A stretch of DNA of 64,000 bases, taken from assembly GCF_024700885.2 (NCBI RefSeq), contig NZ_CP117016.1. One strand, 5' to 3'. The notes beneath the pieces are model-generated. The model had not been told where the DNA came from. It was given only the letters and a program-made list of their open reading frames with translations, and searched no databases. Of this stretch, positions 1 to 40,421 are shown piece by piece. Every line of letters begins with the position of its first letter. The stretch's first letter is position 1. A program made the translations under genes and the position numbers. Source of the DNA: Escherichia coli. Lineage in GTDB: Bacteria > Pseudomonadota > Gammaproteobacteria > Enterobacterales > Enterobacteriaceae.

Positions 1-63
1 CATCAGAGCAAAAAAGAAGCTCAGCAATCCACACTCTCCGTCGAATCACCGGTACAACGTTAG
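1..63 (+). CDS. yfgG: C-terminal 20 codons of a small protein gene entering from upstream of the window
   Basis: Open from base 1 in frame 1 (HQSKKEAQQSTLSVESPVQR, TAG at 61-63). Matches my recollection of the YfgG C-terminus and the yfgG-yfgH-yfgI order. Confidence 0.5.
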   Translation, partial: HQSKKEAQQSTLSVESPVQR

Positions 64-7893: not shown

Positions 7894-7997
7894 GTTAAAT
7901 CTCCAGATAGTCGCAGCACCCGTTGCGCCGCATATCTGGTCATTCTATTACCTAAAAAACCACATATGGATAGACAACCCATAAATACGAACAGATA

Positions 7998-8012
7998 TTA
8001 CCTTTCAGGTAA
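7998..8012. promoter_or_regulatory. operator TTACCTTTCAGGTAA
   Basis: Perfect TTACC-N5-GGTAA palindrome. Overlaps a +strand TAGACA(7971)-N17-GATATT(7994) promoter-like pair. Confidence 0.55.
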
Positions 8013-8088
8013 TTCGCAAAACGTGCTGGATAGCAAACAAATTATTTGGTACTGTATAAATATACAGTTATTGCATGGAGAAGATAAG

Positions 8089-8346
8089 ATGCAGCAGTAT
8101 CACTATCCACTGGAAGACGGATTTACCGAAAGGATTCACACGCCGGGAGGCGTCAGGTCACTGGTGGATGGATCGCACTTGATGAAATTACTCCGGGATC
8201 TCGATAAGGATGGATTTAATGTCGATGGCCCACTTGCCGAACTGACTGCACTGATTAACTACGTCACCAGCTCACAGATGTCTATGCAGGATCTGCAAAC
8301 ACATCTCGACTATTGTGCCGAACAATTACGAAAACAAACTACATAA
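8089..8346 (+). CDS. hypothetical protein (opposite-strand moron, 85 aa)
   Basis: ATG 8089 is preceded by GGAGAAG. The ORF-track start 7966 lies inside the regulatory region and was rejected. No recognisable motifs. Confidence 0.5.
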   Translation: MQQYHYPLEDGFTERIHTPGGVRSLVDGSHLMKLLRDLDKDGFNVDGPLAELTALINYVTSSQMSMQDLQTHLDYCAEQLRKQTT

Positions 8347-8351
8347 AGAAA

Positions 8352-8369
8352 AGGCCGCGAAAGCGGCCT
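8352..8369 (-). terminator. rho-independent terminator ending the ejection-protein operon
   Basis: AGGCCGC-gaaa-GCGGCCT, followed on the minus strand by TTTTCTTT. Confidence 0.6.
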
Positions 8370-8377
8370 GTGACATG

Positions 8378-8674
8378 TCACGTTCCTTTTCTGAATGATA
8401 GCCATTCGAAAAATGATGACATTCCACCGCAGACAATAGCAAAGATGATCCCACCAAAGAAGAGAAGGCCAGCCTGCCACCACTCCCACCGCCATACATC
8501 CACAGCGCCAACCATACCAACAATCGCTCCAACAAATGGAATATAGCTCACGATGAAAGCGATGGGGGCTGCAATTATCCAGTGCAATCCCCACCATGAT
8601 TCAAGCCCAGCCATAATTGCTGCCAACTGAAAAAGACCAACGACGATATAAACAATGAATCCTATAGCTTGCAT
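8378..8674 (-). CDS. small integral membrane protein (3 TM, Trp-rich)
   Basis: 98 aa, almost entirely hydrophobic. AGGTGA RBS. Last gene of the leftward virion operon. Confidence 0.6.
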   Translation of the reverse strand: MQAIGFIVYIVVGLFQLAAIMAGLESWWGLHWIIAAPIAFIVSYIPFVGAIVGMVGAVDVWRWEWWQAGLLFFGGIIFAIVCGGMSSFFEWLSFRKGT

Positions 8675-8686
8675 GTAGTCACCTAT

Positions 8687-8860
8687 TTACCCAGTAAAAA
8701 TAAGAGGCCTCCCCTCAATAAGGCTTGCAACAAGAACTACTCCCTGCACAACAAAGATGAACCAGCAAATAGCTTGAGTCTGAGGGTTAAGAAAATATTT
8801 GTAGCGGTCAATAAATAACAATCCACCAGAAATTATCACACTCAAAATAATTAAAAACAC
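8687..8860 (-). CDS. small membrane protein (57 aa, GTG start), not in the ORF track
   Basis: Hand translation: (M)FLIILSVIISGGLLFIDRYKYFLNPQTQAICWFIFVVQGVVLVASLIEGRPLIFTG. AAGGAAG lies 4 nt upstream of the GTG. It fills the gap between two genes. Confidence 0.4.
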   Translation of the reverse strand: MFLIILSVIISGGLLFIDRYKYFLNPQTQAICWFIFVVQGVVLVASLIEGRPLIFTG

Positions 8861-8869
8861 AACACTTCC

Positions 8870-11344
8870 TTATTGCGGAGTGACATCCTGAGGTCGCCAC
8901 CAGTATGTCTGGTTAAACTCTTTCTTCGAACGTTGCTCCATTTTACGCAAATAGCCTGGTGAAAAATACTCCTGCATCTGGTTAAAGATCATGTGATCGA
9001 GAGCCGCCTTCAAGTACCAGAGATTCGCACCAGGCATCAAACCTTTCCCCAGCTTCACCAGATCACCACCAGTCTGCTCACTCTTCCCTTCCACAGCATT
9101 TAACGGTATGCCCTGAGCAATCTTCACTACGTCATCAACCAGACCAGCTACCGGGCCAAGCATCGACGCCAGCGCGCCGCTTCCGTACCTAGTGTGATCT
9201 GACAATAAAAAGTCACCGTACAGGCCAAGACCACCACCTTTCAGTAGAGCACCAAGCCAGAATTTTGCGGCATCTTCTCCTGTCATCTCTCGAGGATTAC
9301 GACCAGACGCAAGGTCGTTAAGTTGCTGCGACAAAGCGCCAAGAATGGTCGTACTGGCAATAAACGTCGCAATATATGCCGCACGCCCACCAGCAGACGG
9401 CATACCCATAGCGCGTGACCAGTGACGCATAACAACCGAGATAGGGAACGATTTAAACAGGAAAACACTTCTCGTTAATTCACCTTTCCATGTTCCACGC
9501 TGAATACCAGAACCGGTTATCAGTTGCTCACGTGCTCCCGGTGTAATAACAGCCATATCAACTTCTTCAGTTACGGCACCGAGCAGTTTACGCATTGCCT
9601 CAAATTTCACGCGTTCAGGCTCACCAAGATGTTTAACTGCTGAATCAGGGATACGCATAATGCTTTCCGGCGTCAGCATCGTATTATTACCGTTCCCCCA
9701 GTCCTCCTGTTGCGCCAACTTCCATACGCTCCAGTCTGTGTCAGTAATCCCTTTGCTTTTCAGGATACGAAAATCAGAGTCATCAAGGCTACGAAGGTCT
9801 GGTGTCCGTGACACTACTTCTCCCAGGCTTCCCATCATGGTTACGCCATAGGCGCGCTTGTGCGCATCTGACCATGCTGTAAGCCCACTGGCACGCATTA
9901 CCGCCGTTGCCGCCCAACGAGACACTGACGGCCCCATATTATCCATCGCCCAGCGGTTAACGCTGCCAAGTAGAGATTCCATCGCCAGACCAGCGCGGCG
10001 CGCCCGCACAAGTTCTGTACGGTTCGTTGGGTCCATAGCTTCAAGCTGGTTGCGGAATAACTGGTTCATTGGAAGGTTGGTAACCTTCGCAGACAGATAC
10101 ATGGTTCCAAGATCAGAGAACGATGACAGCAACGCGGATCCGAGCCTGCTGGCAACCAGCCAGTTGCGGATATTGTCAGACCATCGCGCGATGTGCGGAT
10201 TCGCTACAGGCTGTGTCTTTCCGGAAATAAAGTTGTACAGATTCTCTGTGTTGTTCGCCAGCCGCTCGACTTTACCGGTTTTACTCGGGTTAGCTGTTGC
10301 CGTTTCTGCCTTAACCTGATCAAGAAGGGAGCGGAAAACATGATCGGGGTTTGGACCATATGTTTCCACCAGAGCAATATCTTTACTGATACCTTCCAGG
10401 TGACCGACCATGATTTCCCATAGAGAGCGATCGCCATAAAGTTGTTGATATTGGAGATAGGAATCTGCATCTTTGAAATGTATCTGTCGTGATGCATTAC
10501 CACGGTTAGCACGTGCGCCGGAAATTCGCATTCCGGTATCAGTAAGCTTATTCAGCCCACCAGTAGCGATCGTGTTATAAGCCTCTCCAAGAAATGCAGA
10601 CAACTCGGCATCGTTCATCAGTTGTCCATCGGCTCTGGTATAATATTTGCGATCCAGCTTACCTATAACATCGCTAACCCACTTATCCTTTGATACCGCC
10701 CCAACCTTTTCCATAGAATGATGTTGAGGGATCCCCCAGTTTTCGAGATAGCCAATGTCCCCACCAGCATCATTAAACCGGCGGCGCAGCAGCTCTGCAA
10801 CTTCTCTCCACGCTTTAGCACCTTTTCTTGCTTTAGCATTGCCAGTATTTTGCCCCCGCATTTCATATACCAGGTCACGTACGCCCGCTTCATCTTCAAA
10901 CAGGCCAAAAAAGCGAGGATCAACTGCTTCAAATGCCTCCTGCAATTGACTCAATGCATAATCACGAGTGGCTTTTGTTCTGGATTCAACAGAGAGGAAA
11001 TTCGATTTACCGTCTGCATTAAAAGCAATAGTACGGTTAAGAGCGCCAAGTTTCCCATCAGCCCCTTGATAGCTATTGATAAATTTATCCAATCTCTGAC
11101 GTGCGGCTATAGTGAGAGCCACACGACGTTTCTTTAATGCCGCTTCTCGCTGTAATTCTTCAGATGCCAATTGTGCTGCACGATACAACCGTTCTGATTC
11201 GGAAAGTTGTCGCCACGACATCGGGTCATCACGAGCAATGGAGCGCATATTTCGATAAATGCGGTCTTCAATGTTCTGTATTTCTCGCGCCGTTAACGTG
11301 CGCTGCGCCGCCTGCTGGACCGCTTGTATACATTCCTGTCTCAT
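8870..11344 (-). CDS. large internal virion (ejection) protein
   Basis: 824 aa. Position and size fit the third of three large proteins downstream of the tail-tube genes in this phage group. Hydrophobic Gly/Ala-rich C-terminal segments. Confidence 0.6.
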   Translation of the reverse strand: MRQECIQAVQQAAQRTLTAREIQNIEDRIYRNMRSIARDDPMSWRQLSESERLYRAAQLASEELQREAALKKRRVALTIAARQRLDKFINSYQGADGKLGALNRTIAFNADGKSNFLSVESRTKATRDYALSQLQEAFEAVDPRFFGLFEDEAGVRDLVYEMRGQNTGNAKARKGAKAWREVAELLRRRFNDAGGDIGYLENWGIPQHHSMEKVGAVSKDKWVSDVIGKLDRKYYTRADGQLMNDAELSAFLGEAYNTIATGGLNKLTDTGMRISGARANRGNASRQIHFKDADSYLQYQQLYGDRSLWEIMVGHLEGISKDIALVETYGPNPDHVFRSLLDQVKAETATANPSKTGKVERLANNTENLYNFISGKTQPVANPHIARWSDNIRNWLVASRLGSALLSSFSDLGTMYLSAKVTNLPMNQLFRNQLEAMDPTNRTELVRARRAGLAMESLLGSVNRWAMDNMGPSVSRWAATAVMRASGLTAWSDAHKRAYGVTMMGSLGEVVSRTPDLRSLDDSDFRILKSKGITDTDWSVWKLAQQEDWGNGNNTMLTPESIMRIPDSAVKHLGEPERVKFEAMRKLLGAVTEEVDMAVITPGAREQLITGSGIQRGTWKGELTRSVFLFKSFPISVVMRHWSRAMGMPSAGGRAAYIATFIASTTILGALSQQLNDLASGRNPREMTGEDAAKFWLGALLKGGGLGLYGDFLLSDHTRYGSGALASMLGPVAGLVDDVVKIAQGIPLNAVEGKSEQTGGDLVKLGKGLMPGANLWYLKAALDHMIFNQMQEYFSPGYLRKMEQRSKKEFNQTYWWRPQDVTPQ

Positions 11345-22952: not shown

Positions 22953-23245
22953 TCCTGTTCACTGGCCTCTTTGGCCATCTTCAAATACTGTTCAGGGCAA
23001 TGCGCCATAACGCGCTGAAACAGTTCCAGCGCCAGATTGCGTTGCCCCTCATTAAATGCCATTGCCATAGCATCCATCGGAGAGATAGCGGAAAACACCC
23101 GGCCTTTCTCCAGCACCGACCAGACAACGCGACGCCCCTGTTCACTGCTCATGACAAAGCGAATGTCATCAATTTCACGCTGTGCCATGTCACGTTGCTT
23201 ACGGGCGTTTTCTTCTTTCAGTTGATCGTCTTCGTAATCTGTCAT
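22949..23245 (-). CDS. small conserved head-module protein
   Basis: 98 aa, coupled to the portal stop and the scaffold start. Confidence 0.5.
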   Translation of the reverse strand: MTDYEDDQLKEENARKQRDMAQREIDDIRFVMSSEQGRRVVWSVLEKGRVFSAISPMDAMAMAFNEGQRNLALELFQRVMAHCPEQYLKMAKEASEQE

Positions 23246-24921
23246 TGTGATTGCCCACCCTGACCACTAACTGCATTCGCCATAGCTGACAAAACACTCG
23301 GATCCGAAGTTTTAGCTTCGCTTAGCGTCTTGGCACCCTGTGCCGCCGCCATCCCCATCGCCATCATTTGTTGCTGCTGTTGTTGCTGTGCCCGTTGCTG
23401 GCGAGCCTGCTCAACCTGTTCCTGCGGAACAATGACGGTTGGAGACACTCCGGACATATCAGCGAATGCATCGATCGCCTGATCAACGTTGAGTTTGTCG
23501 AGAGCTTCTGGTTTCGCTTGCGCAAGTTGACCAATAAAGTTGACCGTGGATGCCAGACTGGACAGGCCGATAGACTTCTGCGCCTGAGCCATGACGGAAA
23601 TGTATTCGACCTTCAGGGGCATACCTTCCATCGCGTCAGGCGGTGGCGGCAGCATGTTTTTACGCACCATCATCGAGAAAGCGCGGTCAATGAGAGGATT
23701 AAGACATTCGTCGTTCAGACGCTCCAGAACCGGCCCCAACATCAGAAGTTTTTCTTCTTTCATTTCGATCACCGCTTCAACAGGCATCGAGCGGGTATTG
23801 ATGTTCTGCAACATCATGAACAGATCGACAAAGTAGGCGCTGTTAATGATTTGACGAGTGTCCTGAATGTCTGCCACCAAATCTGCTGTACTGGGGTTAA
23901 CCAGATAAGCAGGCCTGAAACCATCCTGACCAGTAATCTGATCGATATACGTGATGTCGCCAGGAAGAAGGGAGGCACGCTGATTCTTGAGGGAAATCGG
24001 AGCAACCATCGGCGGATTGGTGGCTTTATCAATCAACTGCGACTTGCGCTTCTGGAGAAGCTGCAATGCCTTAACAGGTCCAAGCGCCAGCATACCCGGG
24101 CATGATGATCCATAAACATCTTCGCCGTTAACTTCCCAGCGCGGAGCCATAATTGGAAACTCATCGAATCCGGACTCACGCAACAACTTGTCGTTATCGC
24201 CACCAACCTCGTAATAAACCGATTTGAATGGCTTGTTCTTGCTATCCAGCTTCGATGTATCGCGGTCAATGTTCGGGTAAACCGAATGCATCACTTCAAT
24301 CCACTTCTCGTAGGTGCCGCTTTCCCACATGCTTTTTACGGATTCGCTGACGTTATTTAGCCCGAACTCCTGAACAAGCTGACGAACAGTCATAGAGAAC
24401 TTGCGAAAACAGGTGTCAACACTGCCACGAGGTGAGTTAGCCAGGTAGTAACTTCCTATCGGGAATGGCATTGTACGAATGATGTCCTCGTCATCCTCCA
24501 GCACCGCCATTGCGCCAGTGCTGTATGTGCCGAGGCTTCCGTATAACTGCGGCAGCGACTGATAGAGATTCGACTTATTGAACATATCGTTCATGCGGTT
24601 CTGCACCGCCTCAAGCCACAACTTAACAGGGCCATAATCCATCATTTCAGGATCTGGCGTAGCCAGGCGAAACCACGGACGCGCTGGGCTTGTGATGCCT
24701 GACATCATGCCGCTGGCGAGAGTGCGCGCCGCCATAGTCCCGGTCGAATCAATAATGCGTGTATTGCGTCGATCGTTACGGTTGACCTCAGAAGTCAGAA
24801 AGCGGGAACCACGCGGGTTGATGTAATCACTCAACTCGCGCCAGTGCGGCTCGAACGACTGACGCTCGCTTTCAAGTTGTGCGAACTGTTTGTTCAATCG
24901 CTCTTTAGTTGTTTCCGCCAT
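23242..24921 (-). CDS. portal protein
   Basis: 559 aa. Near the start of the leftward head operon, with a Gln/Ala-rich C-terminus; size and position are typical of portals. Confidence 0.85.
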   Translation of the reverse strand: MAETTKERLNKQFAQLESERQSFEPHWRELSDYINPRGSRFLTSEVNRNDRRNTRIIDSTGTMAARTLASGMMSGITSPARPWFRLATPDPEMMDYGPVKLWLEAVQNRMNDMFNKSNLYQSLPQLYGSLGTYSTGAMAVLEDDEDIIRTMPFPIGSYYLANSPRGSVDTCFRKFSMTVRQLVQEFGLNNVSESVKSMWESGTYEKWIEVMHSVYPNIDRDTSKLDSKNKPFKSVYYEVGGDNDKLLRESGFDEFPIMAPRWEVNGEDVYGSSCPGMLALGPVKALQLLQKRKSQLIDKATNPPMVAPISLKNQRASLLPGDITYIDQITGQDGFRPAYLVNPSTADLVADIQDTRQIINSAYFVDLFMMLQNINTRSMPVEAVIEMKEEKLLMLGPVLERLNDECLNPLIDRAFSMMVRKNMLPPPPDAMEGMPLKVEYISVMAQAQKSIGLSSLASTVNFIGQLAQAKPEALDKLNVDQAIDAFADMSGVSPTVIVPQEQVEQARQQRAQQQQQQQMMAMGMAAAQGAKTLSEAKTSDPSVLSAMANAVSGQGGQSQ

Positions 24922-24935
24922 TTCAATGACTCCGG

Positions 24936-25142
24936 TTACTGACCAAGCAGCGTTTTACCGCTGGTATTAGCGGTTGATGTGTCGCCCTGAGAACCGGTAA
25001 GCAGCGTAGAACTACGACCAGCAGCAGCGCGACGGCGACGAGTTTCTTCGTCGCGGGCATCAACAACGGCGGCATCCTGCTCCTGTGGTGCTGCCTGAAC
25101 TTCTGGTGTTGCAGGCACTGATGGTGAGCTACCCATGCACAT
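24936..25142 (-). CDS. small Ala/Arg-rich protein preceding the portal
   Basis: 68 aa with ACGGAG RBS. The overlapping frame 24923-25162 was rejected. Confidence 0.45.
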   Translation of the reverse strand: MCMGSSPSVPATPEVQAAPQEQDAAVVDARDEETRRRRAAAGRSSTLLTGSQGDTSTANTSGKTLLGQ

Positions 25143-25232
25143 ATCAATGACTCCGTACGCAATTAAATTATTACCAATTTAACCACATATGATTTATTTA
25201 TCGTAGATAGTTGACATTTAACGCACAAATTA

Positions 25233-25247
25233 TTACCTTTAAGGTAA
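25233..25247. promoter_or_regulatory. operator TTACCTTTAAGGTAA with adjacent TTGACA (25211-25216)
   Basis: Perfect TTACC-N5-GGTAA. A consensus -35 lies 17 nt upstream on the + strand. Confidence 0.55.
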
Positions 25248-25569
25248 CTAAAGAGTTCATTCCGGTTACTAACCTGACTGGCTTGTCGTTAAATTGAACA
25301 GGTGGAGTGAGCTTTTATTTTGAGCAGTACGGCGTATGGCACATGCGCCGATAGCGGTCTGGATACGTTTAAGGGGCACCCTCCCTTGCTCGGGCAAACG
25401 AACCAGGTAGCCGGAATGTGCAAGTCGAGCGGTTTTATTCCGCGCACGGGGATTCACCATCCCGGCTATTCGGTGTGACGCCTCGGAATAGACGAGGGTA
25501 CAACGATGAGAGCATTTATGGAGCTGCGACAAAGTGTGGCGCATTAACAGGCTAAGTGCTCTCAGCGTT

Positions 25570-25646
25570 GTGGCATTAGCTCAGCTGGACAGAGCAACCG
25601 CCTTCTAAGCGGTTGGTCGCAGGTTCGAATCCTGCATGCCACGCCA
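25570..25646 (+). tRNA. tRNA-Arg (anticodon UCU, reads AGA)
   Basis: Hand-folded cloverleaf: acceptor GTGGCAT/ATGCCAC, D-arm GCTC/GAGC, anticodon arm ACCGC-CTTCTAA-GCGGT, T-arm GCAGG-TTCGAAT-CCTGC, discriminator G, encoded CCA. Confidence 0.9.
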
Positions 25647-25689
25647 GAATCACGCCTAAGGACCGTGATGCCAGAAGTTCCAGGTGCTT

Positions 25690-25732
25690 GGCGGTGATGG
25701 TTTCCCTTGAAGGACTATCACCGCCCTTTTTT
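25690..25732 (+). terminator. rho-independent terminator after the tRNA
   Basis: GGCGGTGAT...ATCACCGCC followed by CTTTTTT. Confidence 0.7.
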
Positions 25733-25810
25733 ACAGCAGGACGCCATTGCGATGACTTCATGCTGTAAACCCGTACAGCCACGGAAGGCATAACTCATTG
25801 CTTCCAGTTC

Positions 25811-25834
25811 GCCCGGTTCGCCGGGCATTTTTTT
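25811..25834 (+). terminator. second rho-independent terminator
   Basis: GCCCGG-ttcg-CCGGGC followed by ATTTTTTT. Confidence 0.65.
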
Positions 25835-25942
25835 GGCGTGATACGTCACAATTATGATATCGATGCAGATTACGACATACATGAAAAACATGTCATAGTA
25901 TCTCCTGAGGTTAATCTCGATTCAAAAAGAGGATGATTTATA

Positions 25943-26290
25943 ATGATTAAAATCAATAACGTACGTGGTGCTAACGTTAGCGTCAACGGAGAAGACTTCA
26001 CTGGTCATCATATTACGATTAACAATGGAAAAGTGATCGTTGATGGTGTCGAAAAAAATAGCAATCTTGACGGACAGATTAACGTAACAATTAATGGAAG
26101 CGTGGAAGGCGTTGAGATTGAAAATGGATCAGTGACTGTAAGCGGTGATGCACATTATGTGAAAACTATGTCTGGTGATGTCCATTGTTCCAATGTATTG
26201 GGAAATGTAAACACCATGTCTGGAGATGTAATCTGCGAAACTGTTGGTGGAAACGCCAGCACAATGTCTGGAAATATTATCAAGAAATAA
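25943..26290 (+). CDS. beta-strand-repeat protein with three 16-aa TMSG(D/N)(V/I) repeats (function unknown)
   Basis: 115 aa with AAGAGGA RBS. Alternating V/I-x-V/I-x-G pattern; 48-bp DNA periodicity (ATG of TMSG at 26168, 26216, 26264). A hairpin-like GC-rich element and TTTGTTTT follow the stop. Confidence 0.6.
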   Translation: MIKINNVRGANVSVNGEDFTGHHITINNGKVIVDGVEKNSNLDGQINVTINGSVEGVEIENGSVTVSGDAHYVKTMSGDVHCSNVLGNVNTMSGDVICETVGGNASTMSGNIIKK

Positions 26291-26375
26291 TTATTTAAAA
26301 ATAAAGCCCGCCAAATGCGCGCGCTTTGTTTTATCCTCACCAGAGGATATCAACGACATTATCCCCACCAGCGGA

Positions 26376-27851
26376 TTAAGCATAGGGATCGTAATCTGTA
26401 ATGGCCTTGCCTTGCTGGTTCTGCTGACCTGGAATTCGCAGACGCTTCGACACAGGGAACGCAAACGTCAGCAGTAGCGCATCGCCTTTACCCGGCGAAC
26501 GCCCAAGCCGCTCCTTGATATCCTCCTTCGGTTCGATAACGATTTTACCGTCCACGCGAACTTTGTACTCTGCCGCCGACAGGTCGTCTGCAGTTTCCTG
26601 GTCATCCAGCATGCCGCCCAGCCTCAGCCATGTCTTGCATGAGTTGAACATCTCCCCGCGCTTGTTGAGCATCTGAGGGTCAGTTGACGCGCCACCGAAC
26701 GGAACAAGTTGCCATGTGCGCCCCCAGCCGTCACCGATTGACTTCAGGCCAGTACCGTAACCGAAGTCGATGAACACCGCGTCGGCCTGATACTGGTCTT
26801 CAAAGTCAGCGATACGCTTCGCCATAATCAGATCGTCGGTGGTCTTGTTGCCAGTCCACAGCACCTTACTGTGCAGCCCCTGCCGCAGGTATATCACCGC
26901 GTCATCAACGCCGGAGTATGCCGGGTCAACTCCGATTATCACCGGAGCATGTGCCACCTGCGCAGCGGTTACCACCCGTTTCATTGCCTCGTCAGTAAGA
27001 CCGGTAGGGATAAACTGCAATTCAGATGCATCAGGGAATATGCCACGCACACGGATTTTAACGAAGTCGCTGTCTTCCCCGTAGTCATCAACCCATTTCT
27101 GCAACTGCTGTTTGTTAGTGCCTTCCACCGTCCGGCTGTCAATCTGCGCAGTTTTCCAGCGGTGTTTATATTTGCGGAAACATTCTCGGAAACGTCCGGT
27201 ATTACGCGTCGGGTTTCCGAACGCCACCCAGATAATCTCAGTGTCTTCGTCCGTAAGCGCACCCTCGGCAACTTCCCACACCAGATCCGCAATGTTCGAC
27301 GCTTCATCGAATACCACGATGATACGTTTGCGCTCGTTGTGTAGTCCGGCGAACGCCTCAGTATTGTGCTCAGACCAGGGGATTGCGTCAGCTCGCCACC
27401 GCTTGTCGTGCCCAGGATCATTGCTGTACATCGCGGTAGCGGTACAGGTGAACCAGTCTTTCGTGATAGCAAGGTTCGACCACTTGATAATTTCCGGCCA
27501 GGTCTTCGTTCGTAGCTGGTTGTCGGTGTTGGCGGTCACCACGATCTTACAATCCTCGCAAGTGGACATGCCCCAGTTGATCAGCATTGAGATGAATGCG
27601 GATTTACCAATACCGTGACCAGAAGCGCGTGCCAGCATAAGCGGCTGATAGCGCGTCTCTGGATTCTGCAGGTGATCACGTATCTCTCGGAACGCATCAG
27701 CCTGCCACTGACGTGGGCCGGTGGCATGTGCCAGTTCAGTCCCCTCTTCCCCCCACGGGAACGCATAGAGGGCATAGCCAAGCGGATCGTGAGTGAACCC
27801 TGCAATATCCTCGATCAACTGCTCTTCAGGAGATAACGCTGTATCTGTCAC
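26376..27851 (-). CDS. terminase large subunit
   Basis: 491 aa with Walker A-like ASGHGIGKS. Overlaps the terS stop. Confidence 0.9.
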   Translation of the reverse strand: MTDTALSPEEQLIEDIAGFTHDPLGYALYAFPWGEEGTELAHATGPRQWQADAFREIRDHLQNPETRYQPLMLARASGHGIGKSAFISMLINWGMSTCEDCKIVVTANTDNQLRTKTWPEIIKWSNLAITKDWFTCTATAMYSNDPGHDKRWRADAIPWSEHNTEAFAGLHNERKRIIVVFDEASNIADLVWEVAEGALTDEDTEIIWVAFGNPTRNTGRFRECFRKYKHRWKTAQIDSRTVEGTNKQQLQKWVDDYGEDSDFVKIRVRGIFPDASELQFIPTGLTDEAMKRVVTAAQVAHAPVIIGVDPAYSGVDDAVIYLRQGLHSKVLWTGNKTTDDLIMAKRIADFEDQYQADAVFIDFGYGTGLKSIGDGWGRTWQLVPFGGASTDPQMLNKRGEMFNSCKTWLRLGGMLDDQETADDLSAAEYKVRVDGKIVIEPKEDIKERLGRSPGKGDALLLTFAFPVSKRLRIPGQQNQQGKAITDYDPYA

Positions 27852-28444
27852 TGATTACCATCCTGACGTTCTTTGAGTCGCTTCCTGGCTGCTGCTATGC
27901 GATCAGCAATTGTCACATTCACATTAACATCCAGACGTTCTTTGAACGCGTTGACATCAACATGCTTACCAATCAGCTCAAGGTTCTTCACCTTGTCAGG
28001 CCATTTAATTTTTTTGAGGATTGTCTCTATCGAATCCTCGTTCATGTTCATGATGGTCGATGACAGATCAAAGCCACTAAGCGTAGTGCGCCAGATTTTC
28101 GGCCACTCGCGGATTGGCTTAAGGCTCCCATCGTCGTTGAGGATGTCGATCACATCCATCTGGTCGATCTCCACCAGGCGCATAAGAACGTAATCGGCAC
28201 TGACGCGCATTCGTTTGTTGCGCTCCTCCATCAGCTCGGCAATCCGTTTTTGAATGCGTTCATCGCGCATCATGACACTGGCTTTAACTGCCGCTGTATT
28301 TGGGGAGAATCCTGCGTTAATCGCTGCCTGAGTCTGGTTTTCAGGCGTTTTGATGTATGACTGGCAATAAGCCTCCTGCATTGCTGTTAGTGGCTTAAAT
28401 TGCGTTGATTTGCGTTTATAGGTTTTAGGTTCAGCAGGCATCAT
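27848..28444 (-). CDS. terminase small subunit
   Basis: N-terminal HTH-like region (AMQEAYCQSYIKTPENQTQAAINAGFSPNTAAVKA). Start moved to ATG 28444 (MMPAEPK), which has GGTGG upstream. Confidence 0.75.
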   Translation of the reverse strand: MMPAEPKTYKRKSTQFKPLTAMQEAYCQSYIKTPENQTQAAINAGFSPNTAAVKASVMMRDERIQKRIAELMEERNKRMRVSADYVLMRLVEIDQMDVIDILNDDGSLKPIREWPKIWRTTLSGFDLSSTIMNMNEDSIETILKKIKWPDKVKNLELIGKHVDVNAFKERLDVNVNVTIADRIAAARKRLKERQDGNQ

Positions 28445-28452
28445 AACCACCG

Positions 28453-28483
28453 TGGTAATAGTTACCGTTTTGGTAATAGTACC
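28453..28483. repeat. two direct copies of tGGTAATAGT(T)ACC, each an inverted pair of operator half-sites
   Basis: 28453-28466 and 28471-28483, between a terminator and the terS start. Confidence 0.6.
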
Positions 28484-28484
28484 A

Positions 28485-28513
28485 TGCAAAACAAAGCCGC
28501 CATAGTTGGCGGC
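28485..28513 (-). terminator. rho-independent terminator between the regulator-like gene and terS
   Basis: Minus strand reads GCCGCC-aactat-GGCGGC-TTTGTTTTG. Confidence 0.55.
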
Positions 28514-28562
28514 AGTATTCAAAACCCATCAAATTCATCATGCATAATCTACTCGTGACATG

Positions 28563-28904
28563 TCACACTATTAATTTCGTTTCATGCCAGCCTTTAGTCA
28601 CCCAGCATTGCGAGTCACCATTACACGGGCATGAATTAACTGGAACTCTCCCGCCGCACTTACCGCAACGTTTTCTGCTGATCGATTTTATACGCCCGCG
28701 CACGCGTGCATCATCCTGGCGGATCAGTAACGCTATATACTCACCAAATTCGTAAGGCGCACGCCCGGGGCGACGCGTGGCACAGTTACGCTCCAGCATT
28801 TCAATTTCCTGAGCATCAAGCACAATTTCCAGCTTACGCACACCAGATGCAGCTTGTCTGGCTCTCTGAGCGGCTTTGCGCTCTGCTGCTGATTTAGCCA
28901 TCAA
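28563..28904 (-). CDS. putative DNA-binding regulator (basic N-terminus plus C-terminal Cys cluster), candidate late-gene regulator
   Basis: 113 aa: MMAKSAAERKAAQRARQAASGVRKLEIVLDAQEIEMLE..., then CGKCGG-x8-CPC-x5-C. It is the last early-operon gene before the packaging genes. Confidence 0.45.
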   Translation of the reverse strand: MMAKSAAERKAAQRARQAASGVRKLEIVLDAQEIEMLERNCATRRPGRAPYEFGEYIALLIRQDDARVRGRIKSISRKRCGKCGGRVPVNSCPCNGDSQCWVTKGWHETKLIV

Positions 28905-28936
28905 TATTTACCTTTATCGCGAACACCTTTACCGGT

Positions 28937-29179
28937 TTATCTCCTTTGCATGGCACGTAATTTTTTCAGATGGTTCTCCTGTTCTGTTTCAGCCAGGATC
29001 TGGTGATATTCTCTGTGATCAATGTGTTCGAATAAATTATTGAATTTTCTGATGCACACCCTTCCAGGATAGCCATCCATCCTCTTGAAGAACACTGAGT
29101 GATCAGTACTACGAATGATTTTTACTGGATAGCCGGCGCTATCGGTGTATATCTGACCACGTTGAATCAGAGAGAACAT
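28937..29179 (-). CDS. hypothetical early protein
   Basis: 80-aa ORF in the leftward early operon. Confidence 0.5.
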   Translation of the reverse strand: MFSLIQRGQIYTDSAGYPVKIIRSTDHSVFFKRMDGYPGRVCIRKFNNLFEHIDHREYHQILAETEQENHLKKLRAMQRR

Positions 29180-32217: not shown

Positions 32218-32232
32218 TTACCTCTGAGGTAA
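32218..32232. promoter_or_regulatory. operator TTACCTCTGAGGTAA
   Basis: Perfect TTACC-N5-GGTAA, 4 nt upstream of start codon 32214. It contains that gene's GAGG RBS. Confidence 0.5.
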
Positions 32233-32279
32233 TTAAAAACCACATAAGACACGAAATCAATAGAGTTTAGAATATTTTA

Positions 32280-32294
32280 TTACCTGATGGGTAA
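32280..32294. promoter_or_regulatory. operator TTACCTGATGGGTAA
   Basis: Perfect TTACC-N5-GGTAA. A minus-strand TTGATT-N17-TTTAAT promoter-like pair lies between it and 32218-32232. Confidence 0.5.
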
Positions 32295-33117: not shown

Positions 33118-33929
33118 AAGAAATCCTCCCATGCTTCAGGGCTGTTCCAGTGCGGAACGTTGTTATCAGGTAATGTTGATTGCTTCTGTCTGCTAATCTG
33201 CAGCCGCCTTGCCAGCTTCTGCTCCCACTGTGCCTGATGGTATGCCTTACCCTCAGCCATCCAGTAAATTCTGAACTCTGCAAGTTCCTGTGCCGTTGGC
33301 AGACTGTCCAGGTAGATCCCCTGCAATGAGCTTTTCCGAAGAAAGTCATCTGATGGCTGCCATTGTTCATGCATGACAAATTTTCCTAATTGCCCTGGTC
33401 CACCAGGAGGAACAAAGTTATTCATCACGGCGTTGTTTGCTCCGGGGTCATGAGGCACAGAATCCCCGCTTTTTGTCCTGCTCTCCCTCTCTTGGTTAAA
33501 TGACTGGTTATATGACTGGTTCTGGATCCCGTTTTTGGGATCATTCAACATCCCGTTTTTGGGATCATTCAACATCCCGTTTTTGGGTATATTCCCGTTT
33601 TCGGGAACATTACCGTTTTCGGGTTCATTACGTCCTTCTAGGTTGCCTTTAATGTTCCCTTTTTTGGTTATATTAAGAGAGAAAACCCGCACTCTTTTCG
33701 TCGCTCCCTTTCTCTCTCCGGTATCTGAAATAAGCCCCATTTTCATGAGCGATATAAGCCCGGCCTGCACGGTTTTTTTATTCAGGCAAGTGTCTTTAAC
33801 GAGGCGTTCTATGCTGGGGTAGCAGAGGTTATATTCATCGGCTCTGTCAGCCATCGAGAGCAGTATGAGCTTTAATGACGAGCTACCTGGATCTGTCTCC
33901 CAGGCCCAATCTGTTGCATGTCTGCTCAT
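33114..33929 (-). CDS. lambda O-like replication initiator (N-terminal winged-HTH), contains the origin iterons
   Basis: 271 aa. N-terminal DNA-binding-like region and an internal NG-rich repeat encoded by the iterons. Immediately upstream of the P-like gene. Confidence 0.7.
   Translation of the reverse strand: MSRHATDWAWETDPGSSSLKLILLSMADRADEYNLCYPSIERLVKDTCLNKKTVQAGLISLMKMGLISDTGERKGATKRVRVFSLNITKKGNIKGNLEGRNEPENGNVPENGNIPKNGMLNDPKNGMLNDPKNGIQNQSYNQSFNQERESRTKSGDSVPHDPGANNAVMNNFVPPGGPGQLGKFVMHEQWQPSDDFLRKSSLQGIYLDSLPTAQELAEFRIYWMAEGKAYHQAQWEQKLARRLQISRQKQSTLPDNNVPHWNSPEAWEDFL
33528..33623. repeat. origin iterons: five copies of (C/A)CCGTTTT(T/C)GGG spaced 24, 24, 18, 18 bp
   Basis: Cores at 33528, 33552, 33576, 33594 and 33612, inside the O-like gene as in ori-lambda. 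Confidence 0.7.
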
Positions 33930-34680: not shown

Positions 34681-35265
34681 ATGAAAAGTATCCAAGACGT
34701 CCGCAGGCAAAATCTCAACGACTTGATCGACCGTGAATTCAATGGTGTTCAGACGCGGATGGCTGAAAAACTTGGAACTCAGGCAAATCTGGTAAACCGC
34801 TGGGCTCTTGGCAAGAAGGTTATCGGCGACCAGGTTGCGCGAAAAATTGAAGCTGCCGCCAATAAACCACGTAACTGGCTTGATATCGATCGCTCGCTTT
34901 CTCAGGAGGGTTTTCAGCCTGTCGGACCAAGCGACATTGGTCAGCTGGCGGCTCACAACCTGGAACGCTGGATGAGCGAAAGCCGCGACCTTTCAACACA
35001 GGGAAAACTTCACCGCGCATCCGGCGTCGCCCAAGTGACAATCAGCCGCCTGTTAAACAATGAGGTCAGCGTTTCCATTTCCACCCTGGAGAATGTTGCA
35101 TCTGCATTCGGACGTCACGGATATGAACTACTGATTCACCCGCACGACCCTGCAACTATCAACTATGACCGCTCGCGCTACGCATTGTTACCTGAAACCG
35201 AGAAAGCAAAGATCGAAAGTTACATTGAATTTGTCATCAACCAGAACGAAAAAAACAAACAATAA
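34681..35265 (+). CDS. prophage repressor with two tandem XRE-type HTH domains, no S24 peptidase domain
   Basis: 194 aa. HTH1 is TRMAEKLGTQANLVNRWALGKK; HTH2 is KLHRASGVAQVTISRLLNNE. No Ala-Gly / Ser-Lys autocleavage module is visible. Confidence 0.75.
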   Translation: MKSIQDVRRQNLNDLIDREFNGVQTRMAEKLGTQANLVNRWALGKKVIGDQVARKIEAAANKPRNWLDIDRSLSQEGFQPVGPSDIGQLAAHNLERWMSESRDLSTQGKLHRASGVAQVTISRLLNNEVSVSISTLENVASAFGRHGYELLIHPHDPATINYDRSRYALLPETEKAKIESYIEFVINQNEKNKQ

Positions 35266-35322: not shown

Positions 35323-35399
35323 TTACCTTGCAGGTAATTTTTTCAACTCATACCTATTGACATCAAACCAAATACGCATAATCATTACCTCAACGGTAA
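35323..35399 (+). promoter_or_regulatory. rightward early promoter flanked by two operators
   Basis: TTACCTTGCAGGTAA (35323-35337); TTGACA (35357-35362)-N17-AATCAT (35380-35385); TTACCTCAACGGTAA (35385-35399). Confidence 0.55.
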
Positions 35400-39113: not shown

Positions 39114-40364
39114 TTATTCCCCCGCCATCCACTTCTCAAACTTCGACGGGGAGAACGGAATCAGATCCGTATGCTCCCCGTTAATCCAGGAATCAATCAT
39201 ATCGGCCCACTGCTGCAACATGTAGGCGCGCTGTCTGGCGTATTCCGCTTTGTTATATACGGCGCGCACACCTTTCTGCTCATGTGCCAGAGCCTTTTCA
39301 ATCCAGTCTGAAGGATAACCAGCCTCATGCAACAACGTACTGGCTGTACGGCGCATATCGTGTACGGTGAAGTCCTGAATATGCTCACCATCTTCATTTA
39401 TTATTTTCACCGTTCTGTCGATCAGAGAGTTCAGCGCGGCATTAGATAATGGCTTCCGGAAATTGTAACGACCAGGAACCAGATATTCACTTCCACCAGC
39501 GCACATCTGCAACCCGACCAATATATCCTGAACCTGTTTAGGCAGGTAAATAACATGCGCCCGGCTTCCCTTCATGCGGTCTGAAGGAATTGTCCATGTC
39601 CATTTTTTAAAATCTATTTCATCCCACGTTGCATTGGTGAATTCGCCCTTACGAACCATAGTGATAAGCACCAGTTTTAAAGCCATTTTCATAGTGCCCA
39701 TAGCACCAATGGCATCCAACGTGCGGAAGAACAGGCCAATTTCTTCTGGTGTCAGTGTTCGCTCTCGTGGTTTAAATATGGCGATAGACGAAGGTTTAAT
39801 GTCAGCCGCAGGATTAAACAAACCATGACCACGGTCATTGGCGTGACGGTATACGCTGCTGATGATCTCCCTGGCCTGTACTGCTGTTGCCCGACCACCG
39901 CGTTCGACAATCCGGTCACACAAATCACGAACCATCGATGTGGTAATTTCAGCCATCATTTTGTTGCCAAGAACCGGAAGTATGTCACGGTCGATCACCG
40001 CCTGCTTCATTGCGCGGGTACTGTCAGCCAGGATGACGTGTTTCATATAACTGTCGGTATGTACCGCAAACGTCTCGGCACCACGAATTTTTTTGATACC
40101 GTCACGTTTAGCCGCAGCCGGCGACTGGCCTGCTTTAAGCAGCTTCTTTGCAGCAATCAGTTCTTCTCGCGCTTCTGCCAGGCTGATACCGTCACGCCCA
40201 TACTGCCCGATTACCAGTGTTTCGCGGCGACCGTTGATACGGTAGTCATAGCGAAACGAGACCGTGCCTGACGTAAGCACAGCTACATACAGCCCGTCAC
40301 GATCGGAGACCTTGTACAGTTTGTCCTGCGGCTTGAGGTTTTTTAATTTTGTATCGGTAAGCAC
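39114..40364 (-). CDS. int: tyrosine integrase, P4-like
   Basis: 416 aa. N-terminal MLTDTKLKNLKP..LYKVSD..GLYV arm-binding-type domain. C-terminal catalytic residues R...HDMRRT...H...Y. Confidence 0.9.
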   Translation of the reverse strand: MLTDTKLKNLKPQDKLYKVSDRDGLYVAVLTSGTVSFRYDYRINGRRETLVIGQYGRDGISLAEAREELIAAKKLLKAGQSPAAAKRDGIKKIRGAETFAVHTDSYMKHVILADSTRAMKQAVIDRDILPVLGNKMMAEITTSMVRDLCDRIVERGGRATAVQAREIISSVYRHANDRGHGLFNPAADIKPSSIAIFKPRERTLTPEEIGLFFRTLDAIGAMGTMKMALKLVLITMVRKGEFTNATWDEIDFKKWTWTIPSDRMKGSRAHVIYLPKQVQDILVGLQMCAGGSEYLVPGRYNFRKPLSNAALNSLIDRTVKIINEDGEHIQDFTVHDMRRTASTLLHEAGYPSDWIEKALAHEQKGVRAVYNKAEYARQRAYMLQQWADMIDSWINGEHTDLIPFSPSKFEKWMAGE

Positions 40365-40406: not shown

Positions 40407-40421
40407 ATACCTTTAAGGTAA
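40407..40421. promoter_or_regulatory. imperfect operator ATACCTTTAAGGTAA nested in a larger palindrome upstream of int
   Basis: Flanked by TGACGGTAT (40392-40400) and ATACCGTCA (40421-40429). Confidence 0.4.

What the first reader, a model, noticed from the sequence alone, without database searches (positions are those of the whole stretch)
28440..28904. Candidate late-switch architecture: regulator gene, palindrome, terminator, then paired inverted half-site repeats before terS
Reading the minus strand, the elements are as follows. First, a 113-aa basic protein with a C-terminal Cys cluster (CGKCGG...CPC...C). Second, the GTGACATGTCAC palindrome on its stop codon. Third, a GC hairpin followed by TTTGTTTTG (28513-28485). 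Fourth, two direct copies of GGTA(A)CTATTACCA (28483-28453). Each copy is the operator half-sites in inverted order (GGTAA-TAG-TTACC instead of TTACC-N5-GGTAA). Last, the terS start lies 9 nt after the second repeat. This resembles a lambda Q/tR'-type or Ogr-type gate, where packaging and head genes are reached only by antitermination or activator-dependent initiation. Alternatively, the repeats could be a TerS recognition (pac) or autoregulatory site.
Basis: inference. Interest (0 to 1): 0.5.

Follow-up and report, generated by a model that had tools for sequence, protein, structure and literature searches.

The report
Repressor-gated terminase promoter after a terminator
In this epsilon15/phiV10-type prophage of E. 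coli, the "repeats" before the DNA-packaging genes are copies of the phage's own repressor-binding site lying on a small promoter just past a transcription stop signal, an arrangement already annotated in phage epsilon15; the one fresh lead is that the 12-base palindrome on the upstream gene's stop codon follows that gene family across many unrelated phages.

Summary
The repeats were mis-parsed, however. Their inner halves form one canonical copy of the phage's dispersed 15-bp operator TTACC-N5-GGTAA (28476..28462). A weaker second copy (28458..28444) overlaps the terS ribosome site. A conserved extended -10 element (TGgTACTAT, 28484..28476) lies immediately upstream.

The same operator sits at OR, at OL, at a mid-early promoter, and before the portal and tailspike operons: 8 exact copies against 0.18 expected. 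It does so in every relative examined. The epsilon15 GenBank record already labels the orthologous site "repressor" and the hairpin "terminator".

The best reading is therefore as follows. An intrinsic terminator ends the early-right operon. The terS-terL operon then has its own promoter, controlled directly by the immunity repressor. This is not a Q- or Ogr-type gate.

The 113-aa protein is probably a ribbon-helix-helix plus zinc-knuckle DNA binder. It also occurs in N15, which has its own Q, and in P2-like phages, so it is unlikely to be a dedicated late regulator.

The palindrome GTGAC-N2-GTCAC sits at or near the 3' end of this gene in at least 10 lineages. Its half-sites match those of E. 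coli matS. It is probably the protein's own binding site. Its function is unknown.

The parts
28563..28901 (-). Gene for a 112-aa protein (113 aa from the TTG at 28904). It is the orthologue of phiV10 gp55, epsilon15 gp49 and N15 gp46, and the last gene of the early-right ('mid-early') operon. It probably combines a ribbon-helix-helix-like N-terminal half with a Cys-rich zinc knuckle (C79, C82, C91, C93, C99).
28555..28566 (.). Perfect 12-bp palindrome GTGACATGTCAC that contains the gene's stop codon TGA. It is the candidate binding site of the 113-aa protein family. Its half-sites match E. coli matS, but the spacer is 2 bp rather than 3.
   Evidence: Two copies in the window against 0.06 expected. 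GTGAC-N2-GTCAC lies at or within about 50 nt of the 3' end of homologous genes in Uetakeviruses, N15, ZF40, P2-like phages of Yersinia and Xenorhabdus, Pantoea phages and other subfamilies. The matS consensus comes from PMC3603311.
28519..28545 (-). Remnant (ATGCATGATGAATTTGATGGGTTTTGA) of a small accessory gene. The gene is intact (70 aa) in about a third of close relatives and is replaced by other small genes in further relatives.
   Evidence: Class B IMG/VR loci carry a 70-aa ORF between the palindrome and the hairpin. Its last codons (…DEFDGL*) match this stretch.
28487..28513 (-). Intrinsic (rho-independent) terminator: a 7-bp G+C-rich stem, a 4-nt loop, then TTTGTTTTG. It ends the early-right transcription unit.
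   Evidence: Terminator scan and RNA fold. Stem invariant, and only a loop base varies, in the 37 of 40 distinct upstream sequences that carry the hairpin, from E. coli, Salmonella, Enterobacter, Klebsiella, Citrobacter and Scandinavium relatives. Annotated as a terminator in epsilon15. Absent in three relatives that have a different upstream gene.
28476..28484 (-). Extended -10 promoter element TGgTACTAT (TG at 28484-28483, hexamer at 28481..28476), proposed as PterS. There is no -35 match; that position falls inside the terminator hairpin.
   Evidence: Read directly from the sequence. In 40 distinct upstream sequences TG, T1, A2, T4, A5 and T6 never vary. Only the 'n' (G/A/T) and hexamer position 3 (C/T/G) vary. 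The element is kept even where everything upstream of it is replaced (Kp4865-1, L089, L091). The composite TGnTAnnATTACC-N5-GGTAA occurs exactly once in each of the 120 loci that carry it. No transcription start data exist.
28462..28476 (.). Operator O1, TTACCAAAACGGTAA: a canonical copy of the phage's dispersed repressor operator. It would cover about -7 to +8 of PterS.
   Evidence: TTACC-N5-GGTAA occurs 8 times in the window against 0.18 expected. It is the top de novo palindrome in all the related genomes and genome segments scanned, at homologous places. Half-sites are invariant while the spacer varies, apart from one degenerate copy in L091. The orthologous site is annotated 'protein_bind: repressor' in epsilon15, AY150271.2 positions 12..27.
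28444..28458 (.). Operator O2, TTACCACGGTGGTTA: a one-mismatch copy 18 bp from O1 that overlaps the terS Shine-Dalgarno sequence (GGTGG, 28451..28447) and the ATG.
   Evidence: The scan allowing up to 1 mismatch finds 12 sites against 1.0 expected. In epsilon15-type relatives the mismatch is on the other half (TTACTTCGGTGGTAA). The Erwinia relative has two degenerate sites. The site is lost in the Klebsiella type.
27848..28444 (-). terS (small terminase subunit), followed by terL (27851..26376).
   Evidence: Pfam Terminase_2 at E 1e-29; PHROG 51 for TerS and PHROG 2 for TerL. Annotated as terminase in TL-2011b, phiV10, Tyrion and epsilon15.

Best explanation
The window holds an epsilon15/phiV10-type (Uetakevirus) prophage inserted at guaA. 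Positions 28440-28904 are the junction between its early-right genes and its DNA-packaging operon.

Reading the minus strand, the elements are:
1. The last early gene, encoding a small protein that probably binds DNA through a ribbon-helix-helix fold and carries a zinc knuckle.
2. A 12-bp palindrome on its stop codon. This palindrome accompanies the gene family in many phages and is probably the protein's own binding site.
3. The stump of a deleted accessory gene.
4. A strong intrinsic terminator that ends early-right transcription.
5. Four nucleotides later, a sigma-70 extended -10 promoter (TGgTACTAT) for terS-terL.
6. Two adjacent copies of the phage's 15-bp operator (O1 perfect, O2 weak) covering the start region and leader of that promoter.

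Proposed mechanism. In the lysogen the immunity repressor (the 194-aa two-HTH protein at 34681-35265) occupies O1/O2, just as it occupies the same motif at OR, OL, the mid-early promoter and the portal and tailspike operons. Every transcription unit is thus shut off directly, and the terminator stops any stray upstream transcription. When the repressor is inactivated, PterS fires. Any transcript that escapes the terminator is also no longer blocked.

What is shown: presence, enrichment, position and conservation of every element; the mosaic boundaries; and the existing epsilon15 annotation. What is inferred: that the 194-aa repressor is the binder, that TGgTACTAT is a working promoter, and that the 113-aa protein binds the palindrome.
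For: - Operator enrichment: 8 exact copies against 0.18 expected, and 12 against 1.0 with up to one mismatch. All prophage copies are intergenic.
- Immunity-region layout: two to three copies lie between the divergent repressor and cro-like genes, over a TTGTTA-17-TATTAT promoter. Two copies 62 bp apart bracket a TTGACA-17-AATCAT promoter.
- Conservation across relatives: the same motif is the top palindrome at homologous places in Tyrion, VB_ST_E15, Kp4865-1, ST512-KPC3phi13.3 and six bacterial genomes. This holds although the repressor is only 41-73% identical in those relatives.
- terS-proximal site: half-sites are invariant and the spacer is free across 40 distinct sequences, apart from one degenerate copy in L091.
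- Extended -10: it varies only at the two positions that sigma-70 tolerates. It stays attached to the operator when the upstream DNA is swapped.
- Terminator.
- Existing annotation: the epsilon15 GenBank record marks the orthologous site as a repressor-binding site and the hairpin as a terminator.
Against: - No binding or transcript data exist for any of these phages in the searchable literature.
- The promoter has no -35 element, and its -10 overlaps the extended operator half-site ATTACC. Part of its conservation could therefore be due to the operator.
- One hybrid prophage (L059) has a lambdoid S24-type repressor, lacks the 194-aa repressor, and has no OR/OL copies, yet it keeps the terS and portal operators. 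The sites can therefore persist without that repressor, or something else also controls late genes.
- No canonical sigma-70 promoter was found before the portal or tailspike operons. A positive late factor may still exist.
- Three relatives lack the terminator.
Confidence: 0.6

Rival explanations
1. Operators as roadblocks only, with no promoter. terS-terL would be transcribed by read-through from the mid-early promoter (operators at 32280 and 32218). O1/O2 would act like mycobacteriophage 'stoperators' that stop elongating polymerase in the lysogen. The hairpin would be a partial terminator that sets the terS level.
For: There is no -35 element. Three relatives have no terminator, and there a LexA-controlled upstream gene runs straight into the operator. 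A single operator also precedes the portal and tailspike operons, where no canonical promoter was found.
Against: TG-n-TA-n-TAT is conserved exactly as a promoter element would be. It is not part of the flank of the other operators. The hairpin with 7 U in 9 looks like an efficient terminator. The mosaic junction lies just upstream of the TG, as expected for a self-contained promoter-operator-terS module.
Confidence: 0.2
2. The 113-aa protein would be the late-gene switch: either a Q-like antiterminator that lets polymerase pass the hairpin at 28513-28496, or an Ogr-like activator. It would act through the palindrome and/or the repeats.
For: - The gene always lies directly upstream of the late region in Uetakeviruses. 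In some other phages it lies upstream of the holin, endolysin and terS genes.
- It is probably a DNA binder with a zinc knuckle, and its C-terminal half weakly resembles the polymerase-binding TraR/DksA finger.
- Its palindrome often lies 0-25 nt before an intrinsic terminator.
- The L059 hybrid keeps this gene but not the 194-aa repressor.
- The late operons lack canonical promoters.
Against: - No Q-family or Ogr_Delta match, and the Cys spacing is unlike Ogr.
- N15 has both this gene (gene 46) and a separate Q (gene 40) with its own late promoter and terminator.
- P2-like phages carry it next to the portal and terminase genes (where P2 has cos), and Pantoea phages carry it next to xis/int.
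- After terL the palindrome lies downstream of the hairpin in the late direction.
- The repeats are the OR/OL operator, not a private site.
Confidence: 0.15
3. The repeats or the palindrome would be the packaging initiation (pac) site recognised by TerS.
For: They lie next to terS. Headful phages often have pac in or near terS. From memory, the epsilon15 genome is described as 'non-redundant', implying terminal redundancy; the paper could not be opened.
Against: TTACC-N5-GGTAA occurs 8-11 times per genome, mostly in the immunity region. The palindrome occurs 2-3 times per genome. It also follows a gene family found in phages whose context and annotation point to different packaging systems: P2-like, N15 and a Nu1-like terS (those TerS families were not scanned).
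Confidence: 0.05

Closest known systems
Annotated repressor-binding sites and terminator of Salmonella phage epsilon15 (GenBank AY150271.2)
   Same: Orthologous. TTACCAAAACGGTAAT at positions 12..27, just before terS, is labelled 'protein_bind: repressor'. Further copies lie before the portal operon, the tailspike gene, OL and the mid-early gene. The hairpin after gp49 is labelled a rho-independent terminator.
   Different: That annotation is computational. It has no promoter, no second operator and no palindrome. The window's lineage has an extra stump of a deleted gene between the palindrome and the hairpin.
Genome-wide repressor control: phage P1 C1 operators and mycobacteriophage L5/Bxb1 'stoperators' (from general knowledge)
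   Same: One immunity repressor has many sites spread over the genome, including in front of late or structural operons. Silencing is therefore direct rather than through a cascade.
   Different: Here the site is a symmetric 5-N5-5 palindrome. It is present about 8-11 times, at the heads of transcription units, often in pairs 62 bp or 17-18 bp apart. P1 and L5 sites are asymmetric and more numerous.
Lambda Q / PR' / tR' late gate
   Same: A regulator gene lies directly upstream of a terminator that precedes the late genes.
   Different: No Q-family protein and no promoter-proximal Q-binding or pause element were recognised. The terminator is upstream of the candidate promoter, not downstream. 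N15 carries both this gene family and a true Q.
P2 Ogr / P4 Delta zinc-finger late activators
   Same: A small Cys-containing phage protein encoded near late genes.
   Different: No Ogr_Delta match. The Cys pattern is CxxC-x8-CxC-x5-C, against CX2C-X22-CX4C in Ogr (Ogr spacing from memory). No TGT-N12-ACA sites were seen by eye in the regions read; the pattern was not scanned. P2-like phages carry this family in addition.
E. coli MatP / matS
TraR/DksA C4 zinc-finger proteins
   Same: Residues 49-110 align as long helix, CxxCG..(I/L)P...G...C, then a short helix. The PDB profile search ranks TraR and YbiI first (E 0.26). Pairwise hhalign gives 46% probability and P 2e-4.
   Different: Not significant database-wide. 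The fourth Cys position differs. The long helix is tethered to an N-terminal domain, so a TraR-like entry into the polymerase secondary channel is doubtful.

Membership tests
Uetakevirus immunity operator (TTACC-N5-GGTAA) | Inverted 5-bp half-sites TTACC/GGTAA separated by 5 bp, often extended to ATTACC…GGTAAT | tested here: met
   O1 at 28476..28462 is an exact match with an A at -1. O2 at 28458..28444 has one mismatch.
Uetakevirus immunity operator (TTACC-N5-GGTAA) | The same motif clustered at the divergent repressor/cro region and at the leftward early promoter | tested here: met
   Sites at 34611 and 34563 plus one degenerate site at OR, and at 35323 and 35385 at OL bracketing TTGACA-17-AATCAT.
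Uetakevirus immunity operator (TTACC-N5-GGTAA) | Orthologous position conserved in relatives and annotated as a repressor site | tested here: met
   One copy upstream of terS in each of the 120 loci that carry the composite. Labelled 'protein_bind repressor' in epsilon15 at 12..27.
Uetakevirus immunity operator (TTACC-N5-GGTAA) | Bound by the phage repressor | not testable with these tools
   No binding data were found in the searchable literature. Needs EMSA, footprinting or ChIP.
Sigma-70 extended -10 promoter | TG at -15/-14, one base, then a hexamer with A at position 2 and T at position 6 | tested here: met
   TGgTACTAT at 28484..28476. Only the 'n' and hexamer position 3 vary across 40 distinct sequences.
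Sigma-70 extended -10 promoter | A transcript start 6-8 nt downstream | not testable with these tools
   No transcript data. The consensus scan did not report it, since that scan requires a two-hexamer match and only a poor -35 match is visible by eye.
Intrinsic terminator | G+C-rich hairpin immediately followed by a U-rich tract | tested here: met
   7-bp stem (6 G-C pairs), 4-nt loop, then TTTGTTTTG. Conserved in 37 of 40 distinct upstream sequences.
Lambda-type Q antiterminator gate | A protein of a Q family (Q-lambda, Q82 or Q21) | tested here: not met
   No Pfam or NCBIfam hit for the window protein or for 39 family members. No PDB sequence hit to any Q protein.
Lambda-type Q antiterminator gate | A constitutive promoter with a Q-binding/pause element followed by the terminator | tested here: not met
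   The only promoter-like match upstream of the hairpin is weak (GTGACA-18-CATGAT, 9 of 12) and is lost in relatives with other inserts. The candidate promoter lies downstream of the terminator.
Ogr/Delta late activators | Ogr_Delta zinc finger (CX2C-X22-CX4C) | tested here: not met
   No Pfam hit. The Cys pattern is C79-x2-C82-x8-C91-x-C93-x5-C99.
Ribbon-helix-helix DNA-binding superfamily | Beta-strand, helix, helix unit that pairs as a dimer | tested here: inconclusive
MatP/matS system | MatP protein family (Pfam MatP / MatP_C) | tested here: not met
   No Pfam hit. hhalign against MatP gives 0.2% probability.
MatP/matS system | 13-bp site GTGACRNYGTCAC | tested here: not met
   No 13-bp matS is present in the window. 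The phage site has the same half-sites with a 2-bp spacer.
TraR/DksA C4 zinc finger (PF01258) | CxxC-x17-CxxC finger after a long helix | tested here: inconclusive
   TraR and YbiI top the PDB profile search at E 0.26. hhalign gives 46% probability. The fourth Cys is not aligned, and no member reaches the Pfam threshold.
pac site | A unique site at which TerS-directed cutting starts headful packaging | not testable with these tools
   No virion end data. The multi-copy distribution argues against it.

The most novel reading that the evidence does not exclude
PHROG 536 proteins (epsilon15 gp49, phiV10 gp55, N15 gp46 and relatives in P2-like, ZF40-like, Pantoea and Vibrio phages) would form a previously undescribed 'gene plus site' module. 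Each is a ribbon-helix-helix/zinc-knuckle protein that recognises a 12-bp matS-like palindrome (GTGAC-N2-GTCAC). The palindrome is carried on or next to the gene's own stop codon and, in Uetakeviruses, also at other operon ends next to intrinsic terminators. The protein would mark or control transcription-unit boundaries by strengthening or relieving termination, or by insulating accessory genes. Alternatively it would bridge these sites as MatP bridges matS.
Probability: 0.3. Interest if true: 0.6.

Novelty: new member of a known kind. Interest (0 to 1): 0.35.

Why it matters
The gate before terS illustrates a 'flat' control scheme, in which one immunity repressor sits at the head of every transcription unit of a temperate podovirus, the packaging and structural operons included. 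That scheme differs from the lambda cascade and bears on how these serotype-converting prophages of E. coli, Salmonella and Klebsiella stay silent and switch on. It is, however, already implied by the epsilon15 annotation. The more useful outcome is a testable lead. A widespread small phage protein of unknown role appears to have a fixed 12-bp target carried on its own gene's end, and that target shares its half-sites with the host's matS. If confirmed, this gives a new site-specific DNA-binding pair and a possible link between phage regulation and transcription termination or chromosome-organising machinery.

Tried and rejected
- Phage record boundaries. The phiV10 and Tyrion records begin or end inside the palindrome, which raised the idea of a physical genome end. 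The records simply end after the last gene's stop codon, and the epsilon15 record is opened elsewhere. Rejected as evidence for cos or pac.
- Literature on packaging, operators or late control in epsilon15-like phages. Nothing useful was found. The epsilon15 genome paper is not held.
- Covariation between operator and repressor across heteroimmune relatives. All relatives share the same half-sites even at 41% repressor identity, so no covariation test was possible. The only heteroimmune case is the L059 hybrid.
- Rfam search of 24800-29000. Only a tRNA was found.
- First structure model (30 close sequences): pLDDT 62, unusable. The second model reached pLDDT 77.
- PDB sequence searches found no significant hits.
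- hhalign against a single MatP sequence was negative.
- A degenerate-pattern search with the alignment of distant homologues failed.
- The conserved block cATATGTGGTT-N5-GGTAATA before the portal and tailspike operons. I tried to read it as a standard promoter, an IHF site or a degenerate operator, and none fitted convincingly.
- Pfam on the small genes inserted between the palindrome and terS in relatives gave no hits.
Full report
**What the window is.** A megablast of 27800-29300 matches E. coli phages TL-2011b, phiV10, PAS61, ZX5 and relatives, and more distantly Tyrion, epsilon15-type Salmonella phages and Klebsiella phages. These belong to the genus Uetakevirus. The prophage genes run on the minus strand:
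- the 113-aa gene, 28901..28563
- terS, 28444..27848 (Pfam Terminase_2)
- terL, 27851..26376
- the portal gene, 24921..23242.

The integrase lies at 39114-40364, next to guaA. That agrees with the attB reported for phage ZX5 (PMC9782041).

**The observation.**
- The palindrome GTGACATGTCAC occupies 28566..28555 and contains the stop codon TGA. GTGACNNGTCAC occurs twice in the window against 0.06 expected.
- The hairpin GCCGCCA-ACTA-TGGCGGC followed by TTTGTTTTG (28513..28487) is reported by the terminator scan and forms in the minimum-free-energy fold.
- The two 'direct repeats' are at 28483..28472 and 28466..28454.
- terS starts 9 nt later, behind a GGTGG ribosome site.

**What the repeats really are.** TTACC-N5-GGTAA occurs eight times in the window against 0.18 expected. 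One copy, TTACCAAAACGGTAA (28476..28462), spans the junction between the two 'repeats'. Allowing one mismatch gives 12 sites against 1.0 expected. That adds TTACCACGGTGGTTA (28458..28444), which starts at the last TTACC and overlaps the ribosome site and the ATG. The region is therefore two adjacent canonical-order operators, O1 and O2, 18 bp apart. It is not a pair of half-sites in inverted order.

The other copies lie:
- between the divergent 194-aa HTH repressor gene (34681-35265, plus strand) and the cro-like side, over a TTGTTA-17-TATTAT promoter
- as a pair 62 bp apart bracketing a plus-strand TTGACA-17-AATCAT promoter (35323 and 35385)
- as a pair 62 bp apart before the DUF1064 gene (32280 and 32218)
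- singly before the portal operon (25233) and the tailspike operon (7998).

An unbiased count of all 5-N-5 palindromes puts TTACC-N5-GGTAA first in every case. This covered the complete genomes of Tyrion and VB_ST_E15, the Kp4865-1 and ST512-KPC3phi13.3 segments, and six prophage loci from other genera. The copies sit at the same relative places. The repressor in those relatives is only 41-73% identical.

Across 40 distinct terS-upstream sequences the half-sites of O1 never change, apart from one degenerate copy in the Erwinia relative (L091). The 5-bp spacer changes freely. The outer GGTA of 'repeat 1' (variants GATA, GTTA) and the last TTACC of 'repeat 2' (variants TTACT, TTTTC) are not conserved.

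The GenBank record of epsilon15 labels the orthologous TTACCAAAACGGTAAT (positions 12..27) 'protein_bind: repressor'. It labels further copies before the portal operon, the tailspike gene, OL and the mid-early gene, and it labels the hairpin after gp49 a rho-independent terminator. This part of the finding is therefore real but already annotated, albeit only computationally.

**A promoter between terminator and operator.**
- Directly upstream of O1 lies TGgTACTAT (28484..28476), an extended -10 element.
- In all 40 distinct sequences TG, T1, A2, T4, A5 and T6 are invariant. Only the base after TG (G/A/T) and hexamer position 3 (C/T/G) vary. Those are the positions sigma-70 tolerates.
- Three relatives (Kp4865-1, Pseudocitrobacter L089, Erwinia L091) have a different upstream gene and no hairpin. 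They keep the TGnTAnTAT-operator-terS block, so the mosaic junction lies just upstream of the TG.
- The composite TGnTAnnATTACC-N5-GGTAA occurs exactly once in each of the 120 loci that carry it.
- The flanks of the other operators show no such element.
- I therefore propose a dedicated promoter, PterS. Its start region (about 28470-28466) and leader are covered by O1/O2.
- This step is inferred. There is no -35 element and there are no transcript data.

**The stretch between palindrome and hairpin.** About a third of the close relatives carry an intact 70-aa ORF here. The window keeps only its last codons (28545..28519). Other relatives carry, in the same slot, LexA-box promoters driving a UmuD'-like or an 85-aa gene. 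The terminator therefore belongs to the end of the operon rather than to the 113-aa gene itself.

**The 113-aa protein.**
- Family matches. It matches PHROG 536 ('transcriptional regulator') and no Pfam or NCBIfam family. All database names are 'hypothetical protein'.
- Family size. An exhaustive search finds about 150 clusters at 50% identity.
- Conserved features. These are an N-terminal basic stretch, a hydrophobic strand-like segment, two helices, and CxxC…C(x)C…C.
- Weak sequence support. A few family members give sub-threshold RHH_5, RHH_1 and RepB-RCR_reg hits.
- C-terminal half. It aligns weakly with TraR and YbiI (E 0.26; hhalign 46% probability).
- Exclusions. No Q or Ogr relationship was found.

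**Where the family lives.** In Uetakeviruses it is always the last early-right gene before terS, or before a small insert. Elsewhere:
- in N15 it is gene 46, in a phage that has its own Q (gene 40) and a separately annotated late promoter and terminator
- in P2-like phages of Xenorhabdus, Yersinia and others it is the last gene after gpA, facing the 3' end of the portal gene
- in Pantoea phages it lies before xis/int
- in some phages it precedes the holin, endolysin and terS genes.

This distribution argues against a dedicated late activator or antiterminator.

**The palindrome travels with the gene.** GTGAC-N2-GTCAC lies on the stop codon (TGA inside GTGAC) in Uetakeviruses, N15, Pantoea phages, a Yersinia P2-like phage and the L095 type. 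Other positions are:
- 2-20 nt after the stop in ZF40, Xenorhabdus, L096, L168 and L206
- inside the C-terminal codons (V-T-G-H) in the L208-L227 type
- within 0.2-0.5 kb in Vibrio phages and in most of the other P2-like loci, and 1.5-3.4 kb away or absent in the rest of those loci.

The chance expectation is about 1e-4 per 120-nt neighbourhood, my estimate from 4^-10 per position, and at least ten lineages show it. The central two bases vary (AT, AG, GG, TT, CT, TG, CG, AC) while the half-sites do not.

In Uetakeviruses further copies lie next to the bidirectional hairpin after terL. Another lies immediately before the terminator at the end of the tail operon (window 8381..8370, again on a stop codon).

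The half-sites equal those of E. coli matS, GTGAC[AG]N[TC]GTCAC (PMC3603311). The spacer is one base shorter, and no true matS is present in the window. The most economical inference is that the palindrome is the binding site of this protein family. What that binding does is unknown.

**Evidence that complicates the main model.**
- One IMG/VR hybrid (L059) has a lambdoid S24-type repressor and a different early region. It lacks the 194-aa repressor and the OR/OL sites, yet it keeps the 113-aa gene and the terS and portal operators.
- No canonical sigma-70 promoter was found before the portal or tailspike operons. Those carry a conserved block, cATATGTGGTT-N5-GGTAATA, of unknown role.
- A positive late factor therefore cannot be excluded.

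**Verdict.** It is not supported as to mechanism (a Q/Ogr-type gate run by the upstream protein, or a pac site). The best-supported reading is a terminator followed by a repressor-controlled extended -10 promoter for terS-terL. This is orthologous to features already annotated in epsilon15. The new lead is the tight, cross-family linkage of PHROG 536 genes with a matS-like 12-bp palindrome.

Noticed in passing
window 8370-8381 with 8345-8369: A second exact GTGACATGTCAC. It again contains the TGA stop of an unrelated 98-aa ORF (8674..8378) and abuts a strong terminator hairpin at the end of the tail-gene operon. A convergent plus-strand gene (7966-8346) ends at the same hairpin.
   Followed up: partly
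window 25163-25232 and 7928-7997 (minus strand); same places in Tyrion, VB_ST_E15, Kp4865-1 and ST512phi13.3: A conserved block, cATATGTGGTT-N5-GGTAATA, lies 31-43 nt downstream of the single operators before the portal and tailspike operons. A related T(A/T)T(G/A)nGG(T/A)T lies inside the spacer of the mid-early promoter. No canonical sigma-70 promoter was found in either late region. This is a possible late-promoter signature.
   Followed up: partly
window 40407-40421: A one-mismatch operator, ATACCTTTAAGGTAA, lies about 43 nt upstream of the integrase start (40364), close to the guaA attachment site.
   Followed up: no
window 25570-25646 (+): A tRNA-Arg (anticodon TCT) lies between terL and the portal operon, on the opposite strand to the late genes. 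The same kind of tRNA is annotated at this place in Klebsiella phage ST512-KPC3phi13.3.
   Followed up: no
window 34681-35265 (+): The immunity repressor has two helix-turn-helix regions (YdaS-like at 21-61, HTH_3 at 106-147) and no S24 peptidase domain. This fits induction through an antirepressor rather than self-cleavage.
   Followed up: no
window 32218-32294 and 35323-35399: Operator pairs exactly 62 bp apart (about six helical turns) bracket the mid-early and leftward promoters. The same geometry appears in every relative (61-63 bp there), which suggests cooperative or looping repression.
   Followed up: partly
L059 (IMGVR_UViG_2579778842_000017), 1-10400: A hybrid prophage. It has a lambdoid S24 CI-type repressor, SSB and other early genes joined to the Uetakevirus 113-aa gene, terS and the late region. 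It has no Q-like gene in the 10 kb read and none of the 194-aa repressor's OR/OL sites.
   Followed up: partly
L087 12697-13130, L088 13660-14040, L089-L091 (same place): In Klebsiella, Citrobacter, Pseudocitrobacter and Erwinia relatives the palindrome abuts a TTGACT-17-TATACT promoter overlapped by a consensus LexA box (TACTGT-N8-ACAGTA). That promoter drives either a 109-aa UmuD'-like protein (GFPSPAADYVEQ motif) or an 85-aa protein, inserted between the 113-aa gene and terS.
   Followed up: partly
window 33536-33579 (+): Two identical 24-bp tandem copies (TGGGATCATTCAACATCCCGTTTT) lie inside the 271-aa replication-region gene. They may be origin iterons.
   Followed up: no
L098 4847-4930 and similar P2-like loci: A cluster of GTGACATGGCAC, GTGACATGTCAC and GTGACTGACAC lies within about 80 bp, just beyond the 3' end of the portal gene. 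In P2 the cos site is expected there.
   Followed up: no
window 25943-26290 (+): An opposite-strand accessory gene (115 aa, with repeated M-S-G-D/N-V/I segments) lies between terL and the tRNA. In this lineage it replaces the palindrome-bearing segment that most relatives have after terL.
   Followed up: no
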